From positions 53,830-117,829 of IMG/VR virus record IMGVR_UViG_3300021379_000006: a DNA stretch of 64,000 nucleotides, one strand, 5' to 3'. Position numbers and translations under genes: made by a program. The DNA is from a virus. Positions within the stretch are counted from its first letter, which is position 1; every line of letters begins with the position of its first letter. The notes under the pieces were generated by a model. The model ran no database searches. It saw nothing but the letters and a program-made list of their open reading frames with translations, and was not told the origin of the DNA. Shown here piece by piece: positions 44,137-63,459 of this stretch.

Positions 44137-45417
44137 TTAAAACCTTTTAAATATGTTATTGCTTCTTTGAATCTTTCTCTTAGAAGAACGTTGTTTTGTA
44201 TCTTCTTCACGCTCTTGTACTCCAAGAGATGATCCACCAGCATTAGCTTGTTCAGTCTTAAGCTTTCTTACCGTTTTCTCAACACTTTTCTGCGCACCTT
44301 TCTCCATGATCTTGGATTTGTATCCATCAGGATCAGATAACAACCACAGTGCCTCTGAAATCAGTGTATAGTTTGGTTCAACAAACTGATACTTTTCAAG
44401 CAAGTGACCTAACAAGTTTGTATTTCTACCACTTACTGAAGGGTAATTAGGTTGTACTAAACCATTGTATAGCATAGACTGTGTCTTTCTATCAACTTTA
44501 ATATCACCTAAACTTCCTTCCTTAAGAGTATTATACACGTTTTGCATGTATTGCTGTGATGCTTGTTCTTGTTGTCTTTTGCGCATTTCTTGCTCTTGCA
44601 ATTTTTGCGCAACAATCTTTTCTTGCATCTTATCTAATTTTGGTTTGAACTTAGCAGCTTGTTGTTCAAGCTTTCCTAAGTCTTTCCAAATTTCAATTTC
44701 TTCAGCAATCTCTTCAGCTGTTCCGTAACCAGTTGCCTGGAGGTAATCTCTAATAATAGCCTCTTGATCTCTTTCATTTTTAACATCCAAACTTCTGGTT
44801 TCTTCAGTTTGAGCTAATGTTGAAAATAGACCTTTAAGGTCTGTACCTCCATCTGCTACATAACGGGCAGCTATTTGGAGTTCTTGCGGTAAACTTTCAA
44901 AGAACTGTTTGGGTGTCTCTCTTCTAACTTGTTGAGCTCTCTCTTCCAAATTAGCTTCAATGAGTTCTTCCCAGTCTTTTGCCGTATATTCTTCTAACGG
45001 CTTATCATCATCAAAAGGAACAATTTTATCATCTTTTATAAGCTTGTTAAATACATCACTTATTCCAGAAATCTTTTTTCTTCCTCTTTTTTCTTTTTTC
45101 TCTTCTACCTCATCCTCTTCATCACCTTCATCAAGTGCAGCAAATACATCTTCTGCACTTTCTTTAGGTTCTGCTGGAGTCTCTTCTTCAGCTGTTGCTT
45201 CTGTTTCAACTTCTTCTTTAGCTTGTTCTTCTTCAGAATCTGGTTCTGTAAAAGAGAAATCAGCTTCTACTGTTGGTTTACTAAATACTGATTTAGGTGT
45301 ATTTTCTTCTTGTGGAACTGTTACACTATCTGCGCCTGCAGCACCATCAAATAAAGAATCTAAATCAATGTTTTCTTGAGTAACTTTACTCTCAACTGTT
45401 TTAGTTTCTGTTGCCAT
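44137..45417 (-). CDS. Scaffold-like protein (probable start ATG 45417, MATETK)
   Basis: Acidic disordered N-terminus and coiled coil between portal and capsid; a promoter motif overlaps the track's TTG start. Confidence 0.7.
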   Translation of the reverse strand: MATETKTVESKVTQENIDLDSLFDGAAGADSVTVPQEENTPKSVFSKPTVEADFSFTEPDSEEEQAKEEVETEATAEEETPAEPKESAEDVFAALDEGDEEDEVEEKKEKRGRKKISGISDVFNKLIKDDKIVPFDDDKPLEEYTAKDWEELIEANLEERAQQVRRETPKQFFESLPQELQIAARYVADGGTDLKGLFSTLAQTEETRSLDVKNERDQEAIIRDYLQATGYGTAEEIAEEIEIWKDLGKLEQQAAKFKPKLDKMQEKIVAQKLQEQEMRKRQQEQASQQYMQNVYNTLKEGSLGDIKVDRKTQSMLYNGLVQPNYPSVSGRNTNLLGHLLEKYQFVEPNYTLISEALWLLSDPDGYKSKIMEKGAQKSVEKTVRKLKTEQANAGGSSLGVQEREEDTKQRSSKRKIQRSNNIFKRF

Positions 45418-56037: not shown

Positions 56038-56232
56038 TGCAGTTCTCACCCAATTAGTGGATGAGCATTGTTACGTCCACTACAAGGATTCAAACTTGTT
56101 ACTGATTCCTAATTGATTGTAATTTTTTATTTATTTGTGTGTTGCATTGTGTGTGAGTGGTCTAAATCACCACATATACCCACTTTGTAACACTCAGATA
56201 CTTTCTACTCACCTAAATATATAAATATAGCT

Positions 56233-56433
56233 ATGAATAATAATAGCCCTAAGGTTTACACACCTATAGATGAACTCACTGATTATGTTAACTCTATACA
56301 TGAGTTATATAAGAATCTATCTCCTTATGCTCATAACCTACATAGAGCATGTGGTGGTAATCAGTCTTTGTTATTATATATTAATTCCTTTAAGCAGGTA
56401 GTATATAATAACCCGGATAAAGAGAAGTTGTAA
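56233..56433 (+). CDS. Hypothetical protein
   Basis: 66 aa ORF preceded by the TCACCTAA leader motif. Confidence 0.55.
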   Translation: MNNNSPKVYTPIDELTDYVNSIHELYKNLSPYAHNLHRACGGNQSLLLYINSFKQVVYNNPDKEKL

Positions 56434-56950
56434 TAGTATATCTGATGCGGAAATACGAAAGTATACCAGTCGTTGTACCAGTGAACTCCTAATTTGCAAT
56501 AAGGATAGTAGACGGGCGTGGTGAAGATATATTATTATGCACCTAAGCATGTGTCTAAACTGCTTTATCATAATGCTCTCATCCAATTGTAGGAATGGAA
56601 GGTGACTGCTTCCTAAGCAATGAGTTAATTCTGAGTGGAACAAGATACATATAGTGTATTCTTAGTAGTGTGTTTCAGGAATTGCTAATAAGTTCAAGGG
56701 TTACAACCTTGTGGGAGTATTTATTTATTAACCCGTTTCCTGGAATCAAACACTGTTATTATGATGTGAGCCTTAATCCAGGGCACAAGGTAGGTACCTA
56801 CTGTGTAAGGCAATTAATAATATGTGGAGTGAAAGAAGTCAAACACTTCCATAACAAAAAATACAGACCATGTGGCTGGGATAGAGAACACGTTAAATAA
56901 CTATCCAACATTAAAATATACCTGAGCATGTATTCAAACTGCTCTTTTTT
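56434..56950 (+). ncRNA. Long structured non-coding region
   Basis: Successive multi-stem elements and three small H-type pseudoknots; no credible ORF. Confidence 0.5.
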
Positions 56951-56971
56951 ATTCACCTAAACTTATAACAA

Positions 56972-57145
56972 ATGATTAATAGAATACTTATATGGGTGCT
57001 TACAATATTCGTATCCGTAAACATATTAAGAGCAGCTCATCATGCGTTAAACAATGATGATTGGCAAGTGGCTGTTCTATTCGTAATACTTGCCTACTTT
57101 ACTACATACATTCCTTTAATACTTAGAAAACATGAAGACAACTAA
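56972..57145 (+). CDS. 57-aa two-helix membrane protein (not in ORF track)
   Basis: MINRILIWVLTIFVSVNIL...WQVAVLFVILAYFTTYIPLIL; TCACCTAAAC leader. Confidence 0.65.
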   Translation: MINRILIWVLTIFVSVNILRAAHHALNNDDWQVAVLFVILAYFTTYIPLILRKHEDN

Positions 57146-58045: not shown

Positions 58046-58164
58046 GAAATCTAAATTTTGAACTTACATGGGCATCCTTTATAGGTGCTGGTGTAGCATG
58101 GCAACGGAATCGTTGTGCCATATGTATACCTTTTGTTATGCTTGAGATCTCATGGAAAAGCTAA
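58042..58164 (+). CDS. 40-aa hydrophobic peptide
   Basis: MRNLNFELTWASFIGAGVAW...CIPFVMLEISWKS; ATGA coupling. Confidence 0.5.
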   Translation: MRNLNFELTWASFIGAGVAWQRNRCAICIPFVMLEISWKS

Positions 58165-58745
58165 TTAACCAGTTATTCCAGGAGATTTTACCTGGTGATG
58201 AGGAAAAAAGACTACCTCATACTTTTCCAATGCAGAAAACCATATGCAAGTTTAATAAGAACCAGCTGTTTAAAGGTCATTCAGGTAGTATTGTCTATGG
58301 TATGTATGAAGATAAGACTTCTTATATTAGAATTTTCAACCAGTATCATGACACACATGTGTATTACAACTACAACTTTGATACTGATAAGAGTAGTATG
58401 AACGTACGCATTATAGCAGAGGCGCCAAAGTATATGCAAGCATTCTTTGACAAGATATCTGAGAATGGTAAGTATACTATATGTACGCCAAATCCTAAAT
58501 CTATCTATGAGAATCACATTGATATCTTTCTAGATACAACAATAGACATAGAGTACAGTGTATTCTATGATGGTTTCAAAACATTTGGTCACTTTGAGAA
58601 CATACAACTGGCAAAAGAAGCCAGAAACAGAATTAAAATGTTTAAATCTCTTATCCGTGAACATGGTAAGAGTGATGAGTTCTGTAATAATGTTACAATG
58701 AAAGACGGAGATAAGATTTATCTAGCACAATCATTGTTTTCTTAA
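58152..58745 (+). CDS. Hypothetical protein
   Basis: 197 aa ORF. Confidence 0.75.
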   Translation: MEKLINQLFQEILPGDEEKRLPHTFPMQKTICKFNKNQLFKGHSGSIVYGMYEDKTSYIRIFNQYHDTHVYYNYNFDTDKSSMNVRIIAEAPKYMQAFFDKISENGKYTICTPNPKSIYENHIDIFLDTTIDIEYSVFYDGFKTFGHFENIQLAKEARNRIKMFKSLIREHGKSDEFCNNVTMKDGDKIYLAQSLFS

Positions 58746-58752
58746 TTAAATC

Positions 58753-58826
58753 CGCACTATAGTTCGTACTAACAGTACCAGTATATTATTATTATATATA
58801 CTATGTTATAACGCACTATAGTTCGT
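58753..58826. promoter_or_regulatory. Two exact 15-bp near-palindromic repeats CGCACTATAGTTCGT flanking an AT-rich promoter-like spacer
   Basis: Copies at 58753-58767 and 58812-58826; GTATATTA at 58781. Confidence 0.7.
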
Positions 58827-58834
58827 TTTTTAGT

Positions 58835-58945
58835 ATGTTTAGGTGATGAAGAAGAGTTTGCTCCTTACCCGGTTTTTTGGTTTGGTTAAGGGTGTTAACG
58901 TAAAGGATGAAAACTGTTTCTTGCAGGTAAGCTCTTCTTCTTTTT
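58835..58945 (+). ncRNA. Candidate small regulatory RNA
   Basis: 14-bp closing stem 58848-58861/58927-58940 plus T5; inner stem exposing GGUUUUUUGGUUUGGUUAA; 5' tail GUUUAGGUGA. Confidence 0.5.
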
Positions 58946-58951
58946 AAATTA

Positions 58952-59512
58952 ATGCATATGTCTAATAGGGTAACAGATAAAACATTTTATTACATCCTTA
59001 AGAATGCTATGGATGATAAGACTAATCAGAACTATGGTCATGCACTACGTTTGATCAAAGCCAATCTAACTACAGAAGCATTAGAGCTGTTGTTAGATGT
59101 GTTAAGTTCTGAGTCTTTATATGAGCCATTACAAGCAGGTGATTATGTTATGGTTGAGATGGATAGTTATCATGCTAAGACTTATTTCAACTATGATACA
59201 CTAAAAGAAATGGGTTTAGTATGTCCTAAAACAGATATGGTCTATGCTAAAATTCTTAGTGATGGCTCTTGGAGTTCTGGTTTTAATCCTTATTATGGTA
59301 CAATGAAGGTTGAATATCTATATCATGATGATGAAGGTAAACTAAAATACCATGAACATCTTGTAAACACAGTAAGTGTAACTAAAATAGATAAACTTGA
59401 TATACCATATTTTAAAAATTTAAACCATGGCAAGAATATCCAAAGACTTATTAAGGACAGAGATAAAAAACTGGGGGACATTGAAGAGAATGTTTCACAG
59501 ACAAGTTCATAA
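58952..59512 (+). CDS. Hypothetical protein (possible SH3-like barrel)
   Basis: 186 aa ORF; LQAGDYVMVE pattern. Confidence 0.7.
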   Translation: MHMSNRVTDKTFYYILKNAMDDKTNQNYGHALRLIKANLTTEALELLLDVLSSESLYEPLQAGDYVMVEMDSYHAKTYFNYDTLKEMGLVCPKTDMVYAKILSDGSWSSGFNPYYGTMKVEYLYHDDEGKLKYHEHLVNTVSVTKIDKLDIPYFKNLNHGKNIQRLIKDRDKKLGDIEENVSQTSS

Positions 59513-59624
59513 CTTTGGCAGTTATATGAACAAGCGGTATCACATGAGAGATACTGAGTTGGCTGAGGCTTTCAATAATGTAACAGCCATCAGAATACTT
59601 CTTGATAAACATGTCGTACAATAA
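59427..59624 (+). CDS. Hypothetical protein
   Basis: 65 aa ORF bridging neighbours. Confidence 0.55.
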   Translation: MARISKDLLRTEIKNWGTLKRMFHRQVHNFGSYMNKRYHMRDTELAEAFNNVTAIRILLDKHVVQ

Positions 59625-59859
59625 AAAGTTTGGCATTGTAGGTCAAGATGTTTTACAAGACCCTGAATTAAGTATTCAAGCTAAAGGTCTTTACAGTTTA
59701 ATATGTACTTATGCTGATAAAAATAGAGAGTGTTTTCCTTCAATAAATACACTAGCAGATCACTGCAACATGTCAACAAGAACAATAGATAAACTGATAA
59801 AAGAACTAAAAGAAAAGAAATATTTAAGAAGAAGTGGCAGAAAAATAATTTTAAGATAA
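59602..59859 (+). CDS. Winged helix-turn-helix protein (replication-initiator N-terminal type)
   Basis: LSIQAKGLY...CFPSINTLADHCNMSTRTIDKLIKELKEKKYL. Confidence 0.85.
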   Translation: MINMSYNKKFGIVGQDVLQDPELSIQAKGLYSLICTYADKNRECFPSINTLADHCNMSTRTIDKLIKELKEKKYLRRSGRKIILR

Positions 59860-60851: not shown

Positions 60852-60919
60852 GAGTTTGTTCCGCTTCCCACCAACTGTTTAAATAACAGGGAACAGCGCG
60901 CTTAGAACAAACATTTTAT

Positions 60920-60953
60920 GAGGGCTAGTAGAAATACTGGCCCTCTTTTTTTT
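60920..60953 (+). terminator. Intrinsic terminator
   Basis: GAGGGCTAGTA-GAAA-TACTGGCCCTC plus T8. Confidence 0.9.
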
Positions 60954-60974
60954 CACCTAATAATATACTTAAAC

Positions 60975-61487
60975 ATGCTTTCTAATGAACAAAAACAAAT
61001 ACTTAAGCTTGAGAAGCAAATAGCTGAATTACAAGCACGTAAACAACGTTATGAATACTTAGGTATTCTAAGTGAGTATCAGACGCAACCAGAGGTTATC
61101 TCTCAGCGTTTGGACTACACTAAACTCAATCCAACACAACACTTTTTATTTAAGAGAGTGTTACATGGTCTAAATGTTTATACTCCAGAACAACGGAGTA
61201 AACTTCACTGGGATAAGAAAAGAAGAATCAAAAAAGTATGGCAGCGTGGTCAAAGAGAAGTAAATGCTTGGAAACAAGTGATTACTAATAAAAAAGCTAT
61301 GCAAATTTTTAGTATCTTTAAAGGCACCAGGTTAGCGGATGAAATAAATGCTTTACCTGTTGATGATATAGATCCAACTTACATCAACAAGCTGACATTC
61401 AAAGAACTAGGTATTACTTATGAAGATTTAATTCTTTTTTACATGAAGAAAGGCTTATTGCCTAAAAACTTTTTGACTATCAAATGA
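60975..61487 (+). CDS. Hypothetical protein (probable start MLSNEQK)
   Basis: The track's start lies inside the terminator; ATG 60975 follows the TCACCTAA leader. Confidence 0.7.
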   Translation: MLSNEQKQILKLEKQIAELQARKQRYEYLGILSEYQTQPEVISQRLDYTKLNPTQHFLFKRVLHGLNVYTPEQRSKLHWDKKRRIKKVWQRGQREVNAWKQVITNKKAMQIFSIFKGTRLADEINALPVDDIDPTYINKLTFKELGITYEDLILFYMKKGLLPKNFLTIK

Positions 61488-61902: not shown

Positions 61903-61976
61903 GGCCTCATAGCTCAATTGGATAGAGCAACAGCCTTCTAAGCTGTAGGTTCAAGGTTCGAGTCCTTGTGGGGTCA
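61903..61976 (+). tRNA. trnR: tRNA-Arg (TCT)
   Basis: Cloverleaf; anticodon arm ACAGC-CTTCTAA-GCTGT; GGTTCGAGTCC T-arm; CCA not encoded. Confidence 0.95.
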
Positions 61977-61982
61977 CTAGAT

Positions 61983-62068
61983 GGCCGGATGATGGAAGTG
62001 GTAGACATGACAGACTTAAAATCTGTTGGGTAGTAATACCCGTGTGGGTTCAAGTCCCACTCCGGCTA
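61983..62068 (+). tRNA. trnL: tRNA-Leu (TAA)
   Basis: Anticodon arm ACAGA-CTTAAAA-TCTGT; long variable arm; GGTTCAAGTCC. Confidence 0.93.
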
Positions 62069-62072
62069 CTTA

Positions 62073-62146
62073 GCTCTCTTAGCTCAGTTGGTCAGAGCAA
62101 CTGACTCATAATCAGTAGGTCACAGGTTCAAGCCCTGTAGGGAGCA
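62073..62146 (+). tRNA. tRNA with CAT anticodon (Ile2 or elongator Met)
   Basis: ACTGA-CTCATAA-TCAGT; paired G1-C72 and no GGG/CCC anticodon stem, so not initiator. Confidence 0.9.
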
Positions 62147-62165
62147 CCTATTAAATCAAAGATTT

Positions 62166-62361: not shown

Positions 62362-63459
62362 ATGACAAGAAGAGAGATTGTACAGTCTAAAGCATTAGAA
62401 GTTACAGAAAAGCATAACCGTTGTGGATTAGGTATCTCTATGGGTGTTGGTAAGACAAGAATTGCAATCCAACATTTTCAAAAGAATTATGATCCATTTA
62501 TAAAAGCTCTGGTTGTAATACCAAAACTATCTGTTAAAGAAGCCTGGCTTACAGAACTTGAAAAGATGGGTCTTGAACATTTACAACCACACTTTACCTT
62601 TACAACTTATTTATCTATCAACAAGCAAAATCCTATGGAGTATCAGCTTGTTTATTTAGATGAGTGTCACAGTTTACTAGAGAACCATGAAGCTTTCTTA
62701 TCTGCATATTCAGGTAAGATACTTGGTCTCACTGGTACACCACCAGTACGTAAGGGTACAGAAAAGTATAGGATGGTAGAAAAATACTGTCCTATTAAAT
62801 ATGAGTTCTCTGTAGATGATGCTACTGATAACAATATTTTAAATGATTATAAAATTATAGTTCACTACCTTCTTCTAGATAAGAGAATGACTTATAAGAA
62901 GAAGAATAAAAAAGGCGGTCATTGGTTTACATCAGAATACAAAGACTATCTTTATGTGGATAACAGAGTTAAAGAAGCTAATACAGCAAAGCAGAGACAA
63001 TTTGCTTCTATTATGCGGATGAGAGCTCTTATGGACTATACAAGCAAAGAGGCGTATGTCAAATCTATTCTATCCAACATTAGTTCTAAATGTATTGTAT
63101 TTGCAAACACCCAGGACCAAGCAGATAGAATCTGCAGACATTCCTATCATTCTAACAATCCTCAGTCTGAAGAAAACTTTCAGTTATTCAGTGATGGACG
63201 TATAGATCAGATGTCTTGTGTATTGCAGCTTAGTGAAGGTGTTACTATACCTAATCTAAAGCAGGGAATTATCATGCATGCGTATGGTAATGAGAGAAAG
63301 ACGGCACAACGTATTGGCCGTTTGTTAAGATTAAATCCAACAGAGACAGCTACTTGTCATGTACTATGTTATAAAGGTACACAAGATGAGTATTGGGTGC
63401 AAAAGGCTCTAAAGGGATTTGATCAGAGTAAGATTAAATATTATAACCCTTTAGAGTAA
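62362..63459 (+). CDS. Superfamily 2 DNA helicase
   Basis: MGVGKT, LDECH, GLTGT, LSEGVTIP, QRIGRLLR. Confidence 0.9.
   Translation: MTRREIVQSKALEVTEKHNRCGLGISMGVGKTRIAIQHFQKNYDPFIKALVVIPKLSVKEAWLTELEKMGLEHLQPHFTFTTYLSINKQNPMEYQLVYLDECHSLLENHEAFLSAYSGKILGLTGTPPVRKGTEKYRMVEKYCPIKYEFSVDDATDNNILNDYKIIVHYLLLDKRMTYKKKNKKGGHWFTSEYKDYLYVDNRVKEANTAKQRQFASIMRMRALMDYTSKEAYVKSILSNISSKCIVFANTQDQADRICRHSYHSNNPQSEENFQLFSDGRIDQMSCVLQLSEGVTIPNLKQGIIMHAYGNERKTAQRIGRLLRLNPTETATCHVLCYKGTQDEYWVQKALKGFDQSKIKYYNPLE

What the first reader, a model, noticed from the sequence alone, without database searches (positions are those of the whole stretch)
58835..58945. Candidate dual-seed phage sRNA complementary to two families of 5' leader motifs
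Seen: an intergenic plus-strand element folds into a 14-bp closing stem (G-U pairs favour this strand) ending in U5. Its 5' tail GUUUAGGUGA (58837-58846) is the exact complement of TCACCTAAAC (56953-56962). TCACCTAA also precedes starts at 56233 (56209) and 60975 (60953). Its inner loop GGUUUUUUGGUUUGGUUAA complements AAACCAA, which lies just upstream of late-gene starts at 45417 (scaffold), 42120, 37912 and 50806 (GroES). Inference: one trans-acting RNA could control translation of early and late gene sets, in a host phylum that largely lacks Shine-Dalgarno initiation. I know of no description of this in crAss-like phages. The seeds are short and AT-rich, so chance is not excluded.
Basis: partly seen in the sequence, partly recalled or inferred. 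Interest (0 to 1): 0.82.

Follow-up and report, generated by a model that had tools for sequence, protein, structure and literature searches.

The report
Conserved structured leader RNA in phage
An uncultured marine crAss-like phage carries a small folded RNA, kept in shape by evolution, just ahead of its DNA-replication genes; it most likely works as a built-in stop signal or leader, and the proposed role as a two-target regulator is only half supported.

Summary
The fold is real. Six distinct orthologues from related phage contigs, plus a paralogue, keep a three-way junction: P1 of 14 bp, P2 and P3. Of the pair cells, 98-99% are paired, and 9-12 of 22 pairs changed on both sides. None of 500 shuffles reached this. 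All wobble pairs fit the plus strand only. Rfam has no match.

The 33-codon ORF is not conserved. The 5' box TTTAGGTGAT is invariant in all six orthologues. Its complement, CACCTAA, recurs in early leaders more often than most controls give. The second seed (GGUUU loop against AAACCAA) is no better than chance.

P1 plus the U-run ends 7 nt before the next ORF's ATG. The element lies downstream of a single-copy promoter core flanked by two operator-like palindromes. Complete relatives that keep the operon lack the element. The paralogue lacks the box.

Best reading: a promoter-proximal terminator or leader RNA that also releases a small RNA. Pairing of the box with early transcripts is plausible but unproven. 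No expression data were available.

The parts
58753..58766 (.). Operator-like palindrome O1 (CGCACTATAGTTCG)
   Evidence: The 13-mer is repeated exactly at 58754 and 58813; 0 of 100 shuffles gave as many matches. Both copies change together by lineage and stay palindromic.
58769..58789 (+). Promoter core. Invariant 17-mer CTAACAGTACCAGTATA (58769-58785) overlapping a -10-like GTATATTAT (58781-58789).
   Evidence: The 17-mer is identical in relatives whose flanks differ and is single-copy in this genome. GTATATTAT occurs 13 times in the genome; 6 are intergenic and in sense upstream of genes. Promoter function is inferred.
58812..58825 (.). Operator-like palindrome O2, second copy of O1, 59 bp downstream of it
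58837..58847 (+).
   Evidence: Columns 3-13 of A2 are identical in 6 of 6 orthologues. The box is absent from the paralogue. It is complementary to CACCTAA boxes.
58848..58861 (+). P1 5' arm
   Evidence: 14 pairs, 100% of cells paired; 7 (A2) or 8 (A3) pairs changed on both sides.
58862..58907 (+).
   Evidence: P2 pairs are conserved. The insert has indels and little identity beyond GGTTT. The loop pairs with leaders no better than the null.
58914..58926 (+). P3 hairpin (CTG/CAG here; CTGG/CCAG or CTAG/CTAG in relatives)
   Evidence: G-C to A-U compensatory change; 100% of cells paired.
58927..58945 (+). P1 3' arm (58927-58940) and U5 (58941-58945), terminator-like
   Evidence: A U-rich tail follows P1 in all orthologues but is interrupted (TATTT) in L003/L034.
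58952..59512 (+). First ORF of the downstream operon (186 aa, no family). Its ATG lies 7 nt after the U-run.
   Evidence: The operon is shared at 65-75% nucleotide identity with relatives that lack the element.
56209..56216 (+). TCACCTAA box 16 nt before the ATG at 56233; 12-bp complementarity to the tail (-15.1 kcal/mol)
   Evidence: Kept in L004; TCACTTAA in L003 and CCACTTAA in L010.
56540..56546 (+). CACCTAA within the early non-coding stretch (GCACCTAAGCAT); -15.6 kcal/mol with the tail
56953..56962 (+). TCACCTAAAC box after a terminator-like hairpin and T-run, 9 nt before the ATG at 56972
60953..60960 (+). TCACCTAA box right after terminator 60920-60945, 14 nt before the ATG at 60975
59611..59859 (+). 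82-aa HTH_36 (replication-initiator-like winged helix) protein, candidate binder of O1/O2
   Evidence: Pfam PF13730, E 7e-17. Its putative recognition-helix segment differs by lineage in step with the palindromes. Binding is inferred.

Best explanation
The element is a previously undescribed, conserved structured RNA transcribed on the plus strand as the 5' leader of the phage's replication-gene operon.

Inferred transcription: a single-copy promoter (invariant 17-mer plus a -10-like box), bracketed by two lineage-specific palindromic operators, would start the transcript about 40-55 nt upstream of P1.

Shown structure: the RNA forms a three-way junction whose 14-bp closing stem is followed by a U-run.

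Inferred mechanism: this is an intrinsic, promoter-proximal terminator placed 7 nt before the first ATG, so the operon can only be expressed by read-through. The element would therefore act mainly in cis, as a checkpoint or attenuator, and possibly as a structural cap on the leader. Each termination event would release a stable RNA of about 105-150 nt.

The invariant single-stranded box UUUAGGUGAU of that RNA is complementary to CACCUAA boxes in early leaders and in the early non-coding RNA region. It may pair with them as a secondary, trans role that is plausible but not shown.

The GGUUU loop (the 'second seed') and the 33-codon ORF are not functional features.
For: Structure:
- RNAalifold gives P1/P2/P3.
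- On 6 distinct orthologues, 98.4% of cells are paired and 9 of 22 pairs changed on both sides. No shuffle of 500 reached this. Slid controls gave 40-53% paired and 1-2 such pairs.
- With the paralogue added (8 rows, alignment fitted to the model), 12 of 22 pairs changed on both sides.
- Sixteen wobble cells in P1 fit only the plus strand. The plus-strand MFE is -30.2 kcal/mol against -20.8 for the minus strand.

Leader position:
- The U-run ends at 58945 and the ATG is at 58952, so there is no room for a promoter.
- In orthologues the ATG follows P1 by 12-22 nt, and in the paralogue by 39 nt.

Same promoter, other leaders:
- The 17-mer heads the homologous operon in other phage groups.
- Two of those groups carry unrelated strong hairpins or a canonical terminator at the same place: L014 (z -4.9) and L018.

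The core is the fold, not the seeds:
- The paralogue keeps P1-P3 and the junction sequence, but not the box.

Box pairing:
-.
Against: - No transcript data exist. No run on record as RNA was listed, so the start, the end and termination itself are inferred.
- A plain terminator needs neither a 65-nt conserved interior nor an invariant upstream box.
- I found no alternative (antiterminator) fold and no antiterminator protein.
- The U-run is interrupted in L003/L034 (TATTT) and in the paralogue.
- Complete relatives G002 and G003 lack the element. G002 keeps the promoter and operon with an unstructured leader, so the element is dispensable.
- Only about four independent lineages carry it, so the covariation counts rest on few events.
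Confidence: 0.5

Rival explanations
1. The primary function is a trans-acting, single-seed base-pairing sRNA. It would be made from a middle-type promoter. Its invariant 5' box would pair with CACCUAA boxes 11-16 nt upstream of early start codons and in the early non-coding RNA, shutting off or destabilising early transcripts.
For: - The box is invariant in 6 of 6 orthologues next to a fast-evolving stem.
- The best three of 112 leaders are exactly the three TCACCTAA leaders, at -15.1, -14.8 and -11.2 kcal/mol. Shuffled tails matched this 0 of 100 times and same-GC 13-mers 0 of 200 times.
- Of 7 non-self sites genome-wide at <= -13.5 kcal/mol, 3 lie in 760 nt of the early sense strand.
- Exact CACCTAA leader boxes number 3, 3, 2 and 1 in the four element-bearing lineages, and none in the L019, L018 and L014 loci.
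- L004's tail (A instead of G before TTTAGG) matches TCACCTAAAT at its sites, where the window has TCACCTAAAC.
- The -10-like box is shared with late or middle gene promoters.
Against: - 14 of 400 random genomic 13-mers do as well.
- Leaders are not enriched over coding windows at -10 or -12 kcal/mol.
- The motif test is post hoc: about 0.76 of 1007 8-mers are expected at that P value.
- The paralogue lacks the box.
- TCACCT-like boxes persist at the homologous site in phages without the element: TCACCTTT in L019 and TCACTTAA in L014.
- The co-occurrence is confounded by relatedness.
- Seed and targets are both invariant, so there is only one weak covariation event.
Confidence: 0.25
2. One reading: one sRNA controls both early genes (tail) and late genes (GGUUU loop against AAACCAA).
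For: - AAACCAA occurs in 4 of 112 leaders against 0.71 expected (P 0.006, uncorrected).
- GGTTT is the only invariant stretch of the insert.
Against: - The loop's pairing to leaders is ordinary: 110 of 400 random and 71 of 200 same-GC 19-mers do as well, and 27 of 40 shuffled interiors do as well on the top-3 mean.
- The loop region has indels. In L004/L033 it is reduced to CGGTTTC.
- AAACC-type motifs are a mild general feature of leaders: 9 against 3.7 expected.
Confidence: 0.05
3. DNA-level reading. CACCTAA would be a DNA signal: an early promoter or cassette-boundary element placed after terminators, as in the T4-type PeSL promoter-terminator cassettes. The box at the element would then be an inverted copy, a leftward promoter or a protein site. 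P1 would serve as a terminator or insulator.
For: - Boxes follow hairpin plus T-run and precede small, variable early ORFs.
- L033 and L034 share a near-identical paralogue but diverge right after TCACCT, which looks like a recombination breakpoint.
- Similarity between sites extends a few bases past the 8-mer.
- PeSL papers PMC2839356 and PMC4122927 (search listing and start of abstract only).
Against: - There is no minus-strand ORF to the left of the box.
- On the minus strand P1 would carry A.C mismatches: 2 in the window and 5 in L010.
- No T-run precedes the inverted box.
- The phi14:2 preprint found no common motif at early promoters (passages).
Confidence: 0.12
4. Origin-associated RNA. 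O1/O2 would be initiator-binding dyads around an AT-rich unwinding region, and the structured transcript would prime or activate replication.
For: - A unique site, with two dyads flanking 45 bp of AT-rich DNA.
- The operon encodes a replication-initiator-like HTH_36 protein and a helicase.
- The HTH helix varies with the palindromes.
Against: - There is no direct evidence.
- The GC-skew turn lies at about 55.5 kb, not here.
- Relatives with the same site lack the RNA.
Confidence: 0.06
5. The conserved feature is the small ORF (MKKSLLL..., 58846-58947), as a micro-protein or leader peptide.
For: The ATG is kept in 5 of 6 orthologues. Open frames are 33, 40 and 36 codons in the window, L003 and L034.
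Against: - The frame is 9 codons in L004/L033.
- In L010 the ATG is ATA and a 1-nt insertion shifts the frame.
- The peptides are not alike.
- Substitutions are paired across the stem, not synonymous.
Confidence: 0.02

Closest known systems
Promoter-proximal intrinsic terminators and attenuator leaders of phages and plasmids (lambda pR'-tR' '6S' transcript with Q antitermination; pT181/pIP501 rep-leader attenuation). Recalled, not checked in papers here.
   Same: A regulated promoter is followed within about 150 nt by a stem plus U-run. This lies immediately upstream of the first gene, so expression needs read-through and a short terminated RNA is a by-product.
   Different: The closing stem encloses a conserved 65-nt two-hairpin interior. 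No antiterminator, countertranscript or alternative fold was identified. Termination was not measured.
Trans-acting base-pairing sRNAs with a 5' single-stranded seed and a terminator 3' end (enterobacterial and Bacteroides sRNAs; recalled)
   Same: A conserved unpaired 5' box, a structured body and a U-tail, with complementarity to regions just upstream of start codons.
   Different: It sits as the leader of an operon. The host phylum lacks SD-led initiation and, as I recall, Hfq. No transcript or target effect has been shown. The paralogue has no seed.
Early long non-coding RNAs of crAss-like phage phi14:2 (bioRxiv 10.1101/2020.03.07.982082; passages read)
   Same: Abundant rightward non-coding transcripts from intergenic regions of the early or replicative module of a crAss-like phage of a marine flavobacterium. 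Their function is unknown.
   Different: No sequence relationship was tested or found, and phi14:2 is a distant relative: the best phage-collection matches to the helicase listed are about 28% identical. Those RNAs are described as long. This element is about 110 nt and lies behind a host-type -10 box.
PeSL promoter-terminator cassettes of T4-type phages (PMC2839356, PMC4122927; search listing and start of abstract only)
   Same: A stem-loop plus a short conserved motif recurs at the boundaries of small variable early ORFs and at apparent recombination breakpoints. This applies to the TCACCTAA boxes, not to the RNA fold.
   Different: Unrelated phages and motif. That TCACCTAA acts as a promoter is not shown.

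Membership tests
Any Rfam 15 family | Score at or above the family's gathering threshold | tested here: not met
   Only three tRNAs (61903-62148) pass in the window. In 58740-58960 the best matches score 10-19 bits against thresholds of 46-94.
tRNA / tmRNA | ARAGORN detection | tested here: not met
   Only the three tRNAs at 61903-62148 were found.
Intrinsic (Rho-independent) terminator | Stable stem directly followed by a U-run on the transcribed strand | tested here: met
   A 14-bp P1 followed by U5. A U-rich tail follows in all orthologues, weaker in L003/L034.
Intrinsic (Rho-independent) terminator | Short hairpin loop (3-8 nt), simple stem-loop | tested here: not met
   P1 encloses 65 nt holding P2 and P3. 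The consensus terminator scan does not list it.
Intrinsic (Rho-independent) terminator | RNA 3' ends at the U-run | not testable with these tools
   No run on record as RNA was listed.
Trans-acting base-pairing sRNA | Conserved unpaired seed | tested here: met
   TTTAGGTGAT is invariant in 6 of 6 orthologues and lies outside all helices. It is absent from the paralogue.
Trans-acting base-pairing sRNA | Complementary sites at translation-initiation regions beyond chance | tested here: inconclusive
   - Seed 1: 0 of 100 shuffles and 0 of 200 same-GC 13-mers do as well, but 14 of 400 random 13-mers do, and there is no excess over coding windows.
- Seed 2: at the null level.
Trans-acting base-pairing sRNA | Seed-target covariation | tested here: inconclusive
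   One position changes: G:C in the window against A:U in L004. At one site the box is shifted by 7 nt.
Trans-acting base-pairing sRNA | Discrete transcript and effect on targets | not testable with these tools
   No RNA data.
Riboswitch / switching attenuator | Mutually exclusive terminator and antiterminator folds, or a ligand pocket | tested here: inconclusive
   No competing fold stands out in the MFE or centroid structures or in the alignment. This was not searched exhaustively.
Small protein / leader peptide | Reading frame and peptide conserved in relatives | tested here: not met
   9 codons in L004/L033; ATG lost and frame shifted in L010.
crAss-like phage (context) | Giant virion protein with the DFDxD RNA-polymerase motif; relatives among crAss-like phages | tested here: met
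   - DFDID lies at residue 3779 of the 4988-aa ORF. The motif is as described in the phi14:2 preprint.
- Helicase tblastn hits are to Flavobacterium, Bacteroides (Kehishuvirus), Cellulophaga and IAS phages, all below 60% identity.
- No formal classification was done.

The most novel reading that the evidence does not exclude
The element would be the first base-pairing regulatory RNA of a crAss-like phage. It would be a middle-stage RNA, released by promoter-proximal termination. Its invariant UUUAGGUGAU box would anneal to CACCUAA boxes in early mRNA leaders, and to the 5' arms of early terminators in the non-coding region. This would switch off or re-route early expression in a host phylum that lacks Shine-Dalgarno-led initiation and (as I recall) Hfq.
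Probability: 0.2. Interest if true: 0.75.

Novelty: new member of a known kind. Interest (0 to 1): 0.5.

Why it matters
Gene regulation in crAss-like phages is almost unknown. The one transcriptome paper I read (phi14:2 preprint) reports abundant early non-coding RNAs of unknown function and no early promoter motif.

This finding supplies three things:
- a covariation-supported RNA fold;
- a unique operator-flanked promoter shared across diverged marine relatives;
- a short box/anti-box pair.

Each can be tested with simple reporters in Flavobacterium. If the box pairs with early leaders, that would show RNA-based temporal control in a host group that initiates translation without Shine-Dalgarno pairing. 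If it does not, the element is still a new leader or terminator motif, useful for annotating these uncultured genomes.

Tried and rejected
- Rfam, gathering and permissive thresholds: no family.
- ARAGORN: not a tRNA or tmRNA.
- GenBank phage collection: no match to 2 kb around the element by blastn, nor to either flanking protein by tblastn.
- Pfam and PHROGs: nothing for the flanking ORFs. The ESM Atlas gave nothing informative for the 186-aa protein (best feature score 0.78, TM below 0.4).
- Expression: no RNA holder listed. The two listed runs are of unknown kind and held 0.21-0.26 of the sampled words. I did not lay reads, because contigs of such runs cannot show RNA ends.
- Sigma-70 consensus scan: 30 sites against 29.4 expected, so uninformative.
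- Wider homologue hunts:
  - The core-junction pattern in IMG/VR returned only known loci.
  - The paralogue pattern returned nothing.
  - The promoter-plus-box pattern in metagenomes gave 8 element loci and 11 unrelated matches.
  - In GTDB genomes it gave 5 matches, all inside open reading frames, so chance.
  - Five of the 16 IMG/VR loci with the 17-mer looked like coding-sequence chance matches by eye and were not used.
- Second seed: rejected as at chance.
- Small ORF: rejected.
- A TCACCTAA site in L014 lies antisense inside an ORF, so it is chance.
- The box and the palindromes loosely recall halves of a T7-family phage promoter (recalled only). No T7-like RNA polymerase (PF00940) was found in the genome, although the tool's control genomes were also silent. 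I dropped the idea.
- Unbiased 8-mer enrichment in leaders is dominated by AT-rich words. Among words with 3 or more G/C, TCACCTAA ranks second, at a P value expected about 0.76 times by chance.
- Supplementary tables of the phi14:2 preprint (promoter and transcript lists) were not seen and might bear on early-promoter motifs.
- My ORF map is a simple longest-ATG-ORF caller (112 ORFs, with one start moved from 60918 to 60975). Leader counts depend on it.

Full report
CONTEXT

The window is the right-hand 64 kb of a 117,829-bp virus contig. Late and structural genes lie on the minus strand up to 55537. They include portal, terminase and GroES. Small early and replication genes lie on the plus strand from 55693.

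A 4988-aa ORF carries DFDID. The phi14:2 preprint gives this as the catalytic motif of the crAss-like virion RNA polymerase (passages). The helicase at 62362-63459 finds only distant matches in GenBank phages: 61 records, all below 60% identity, mostly Flavobacterium, Bacteroides and Cellulophaga phages. Leaders are A/T-rich, with almost no Shine-Dalgarno sequences.

THE OBSERVATION

The intergenic region 58746-58951 lies between two ORFs of unknown family, 58152-58745 and 58952-59512.

The single-sequence fold is only mildly unusual. MFE is -30.2 kcal/mol with z -2.39, and 5 of 200 shuffles do as well. The minus strand gives -20.8.

THE FOLD IS CONSERVED

A helicase-anchored search gave ten related loci. 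A promoter 17-mer search and a promoter-plus-box pattern search in metagenomes added more. Together they hold six distinct versions of the element: window, L010, L003, L034, L004 and L033.

RNAalifold predicts a three-way junction:
- P1, 14 bp;
- P2, UCC/GGA, closing a variable insert;
- P3, CUGG/CCAG.

On the MAFFT alignment, 98.4% of 129 cells are paired and 9 of 22 pairs changed on both sides. No shuffle of 500 reached any of four of the five measures. Sliding the partners by 1-3 columns gives 40-53% paired and 1-2 such pairs.

A covariance model finds one copy in this genome. It also finds a diverged paralogue in L033 and L034, at 44 and 41 bits. With these added, 12 of 22 pairs changed on both sides. 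That alignment is fitted to the model, which flatters the count.

All 16 wobble cells in P1 would be A.C mismatches on the other strand. The structure therefore belongs to a plus-strand transcript. About four independent lineages underlie these counts, so the number of evolutionary events is small. The pattern is nonetheless consistent across all three helices.

NOT A PROTEIN GENE AND NOT A KNOWN RNA

The ORF is 33, 40 and 36 codons in the window, L003 and L034, but 9 codons in L004/L033. In L010 the ATG is ATA and a 1-nt insertion shifts the frame. The peptides are not alike. Rfam and ARAGORN give nothing.

WHERE IT SITS

Upstream lie two exact copies of a 13-mer near-palindrome, 59 bp apart. 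They flank an AT-rich stretch that begins with CTAACAGTACCAGTATA.

That 17-mer is identical in relatives whose palindromes differ: GGAACTATAGTTCC in L003/L010, GCAATATATTGC in L004, and others in L019, L014 and L018. Within each genome both copies change together. The 17-mer is single-copy here.

The 17-mer overlaps GTATATTAT. This word occurs 13 times in the genome, and 6 of those are intergenic and in sense upstream of genes, five of them late or middle genes. I read it as a -10-like box. The phi14:2 preprint reports host-polymerase -35/-10-like middle promoters.

The operon behind the promoter encodes an 82-aa HTH_36 replication-initiator-like protein, an HNH nuclease, three tRNAs and a helicase. 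The most variable segment of the HTH protein is its putative recognition helix. That segment is similar in lineages with similar palindromes. It is my candidate operator binder, by inference.

CIS READING

P1 plus the U-run ends 7 nt before the ATG at 58952. In orthologues the gap from P1 to the ATG is 12-22 nt. There is no room for a promoter, so the operon must be expressed by read-through.

The same promoter heads the homologous operon (65-75% identity) in three other phage groups:
- L014 has an unrelated leader with an 18-bp hairpin (z -4.9).
- L018 has a canonical terminator.
- L019 has no structure.

Complete genomes G002 (L019 type) and G003 have no copy of the element. A structured, terminator-like leader is thus a recurrent but replaceable and dispensable feature at this promoter. 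That fits a promoter-proximal terminator or attenuator better than an essential trans regulator.

Against a plain terminator stand the conserved interior (the P2/P3 junction, GGACGCAAGCU-like) and the invariant box.

SEED 1

TTTAGGTGAT is invariant in all six orthologues, although 9 of 14 P1 pairs vary.

Evidence for a link to early transcripts:
- Among 112 leaders, the three best predicted partners of the 13-nt tail are exactly the TCACCTAA leaders, at -15.1, -14.8 and -11.2 kcal/mol.
- The top-3 mean was reached by 0 of 100 shuffled tails, 14 of 400 random genomic 13-mers and 0 of 200 same-GC 13-mers.
- TCACCTAA occurs 13 times in the genome. Three of these are in 30-nt leaders, against 0.14 expected.
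- Genome-wide, 7 non-self sites reach -13.5 kcal/mol. Three of them lie on the sense strand within 56206-56963.
- Exact CACCTAA leader boxes number 3, 3, 2 and 1 in the four element-bearing lineages, and none in the L019, L018 and L014 loci.
- L004's tail has A where the window has G, and its boxes read ...AAAT where the window's 56953 box reads ...AAAC.

Evidence against:
- The enrichment is post hoc. About 0.76 such 8-mers are expected by chance.
- Leaders are not richer than coding windows at -10 or -12 kcal/mol.
- The paralogue has no box.
- The homologous site before the 60975 gene keeps TCACCTTT in L019 and TCACTTAA in L014, both without the element.
- Co-occurrence follows relatedness.

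The boxes also sit right after hairpin plus T-run modules. L033 and L034 share the paralogue but diverge immediately after TCACCT. The boxes may therefore be DNA-level cassette boundaries or promoters, as in the T4-type PeSLs (listing only), with the tail being an inverted copy.

I judge a real link between tail and boxes likely (about 50%) and RNA-RNA pairing the more probable form of it, but unproven.

SEED 2

AAACCAA is mildly enriched in leaders: 4 against 0.71 expected, P 0.006 uncorrected. But the loop pairs with leaders no better than random sequence: 110 of 400 random and 71 of 200 same-GC 19-mers do as well, and 27 of 40 shuffled interiors do as well on the top-3 mean. The loop is also the least conserved part of the RNA. 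I reject the late-gene arm of the model.

COMPARISON AND VERDICT

By position and anatomy, the element works most like a promoter-proximal terminator leader that releases a short RNA. It has the outward anatomy of a seed-bearing sRNA as well. The two roles are not exclusive.

It belongs to no described RNA family. My literature searches found no described small regulatory RNA in crAss-like phages. They found only the uncharacterised early non-coding RNAs of phi14:2.

It is a new member of a known kind. Interest is moderate, and higher if the box-to-early-leader pairing proves real.

Noticed in passing
window 58753-58825; L003, L004, L010, L014, L018, L019 homologous sites: A single-copy promoter or origin-like site. 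An invariant 17-mer (CTAACAGTACCAGTATA) is flanked by two palindromes that differ between phage lineages but match each other within each genome. The 17-mer is identical in phages whose helicases are only about 53-95% identical to this one.
   Followed up: partly
window 59611-59859: An 82-aa HTH_36 replication-initiator-like protein. Its putative recognition-helix segment is its most variable part and groups by palindrome type: L003, L010 and L019 are alike, while the window, L004, L018 and L014 each differ. It is a candidate operator or iteron binder.
   Followed up: partly
window 56209, 56953, 60953; L033:2500-2540(-); L034:7290-7330(-): TCACCTAA/TCACCT boxes sit directly after hairpin plus T-run modules and 9-16 nt before the ATGs of small early ORFs. 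L033 and L034 share an identical upstream module but diverge right after the box, which looks like a cassette boundary or recombination breakpoint.
   Followed up: partly
window 29907, 38520, 39884, 45453 (minus strand); 58781 (plus); genome 30226 and 33304: A GTATATT(A/G)T -10-like box preceded by a T-run lies 36-52 nt upstream of several late or middle gene starts. It is probably the phage's middle/late promoter class.
   Followed up: partly
window 56434-56950: A long early non-coding stretch. Its duplicated motif, ACCT(A/G)AGCATGT..T..AAACTGC at about 56541 and 56921, is also complementary to the element's tail with wobble pairs. The second copy forms the 5' arm of the terminator before 56972. 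In L033/L034 the paralogous three-way-junction element occupies the corresponding place.
   Followed up: partly
window 60918-60975: The longest ORF start at 60918 lies inside a strong terminator (60920-60945). The real start is probably the ATG at 60975, which is conserved in relatives (MLSNEQKQ...).
   Followed up: partly
genome 41848-56814 (window up to 2985), minus strand: A 4988-aa ORF carries the crAss-type DFDID polymerase motif at residue 3779. The virion RNA polymerase here is embedded in a far larger protein than the 2180-aa gp66 of phi14:2.
   Followed up: no
whole genome, coding strands: TCACCT is strongly strand-biased in coding regions, with 11 sense against 51 antisense occurrences. 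This may only reflect purine-rich codon usage.
   Followed up: no
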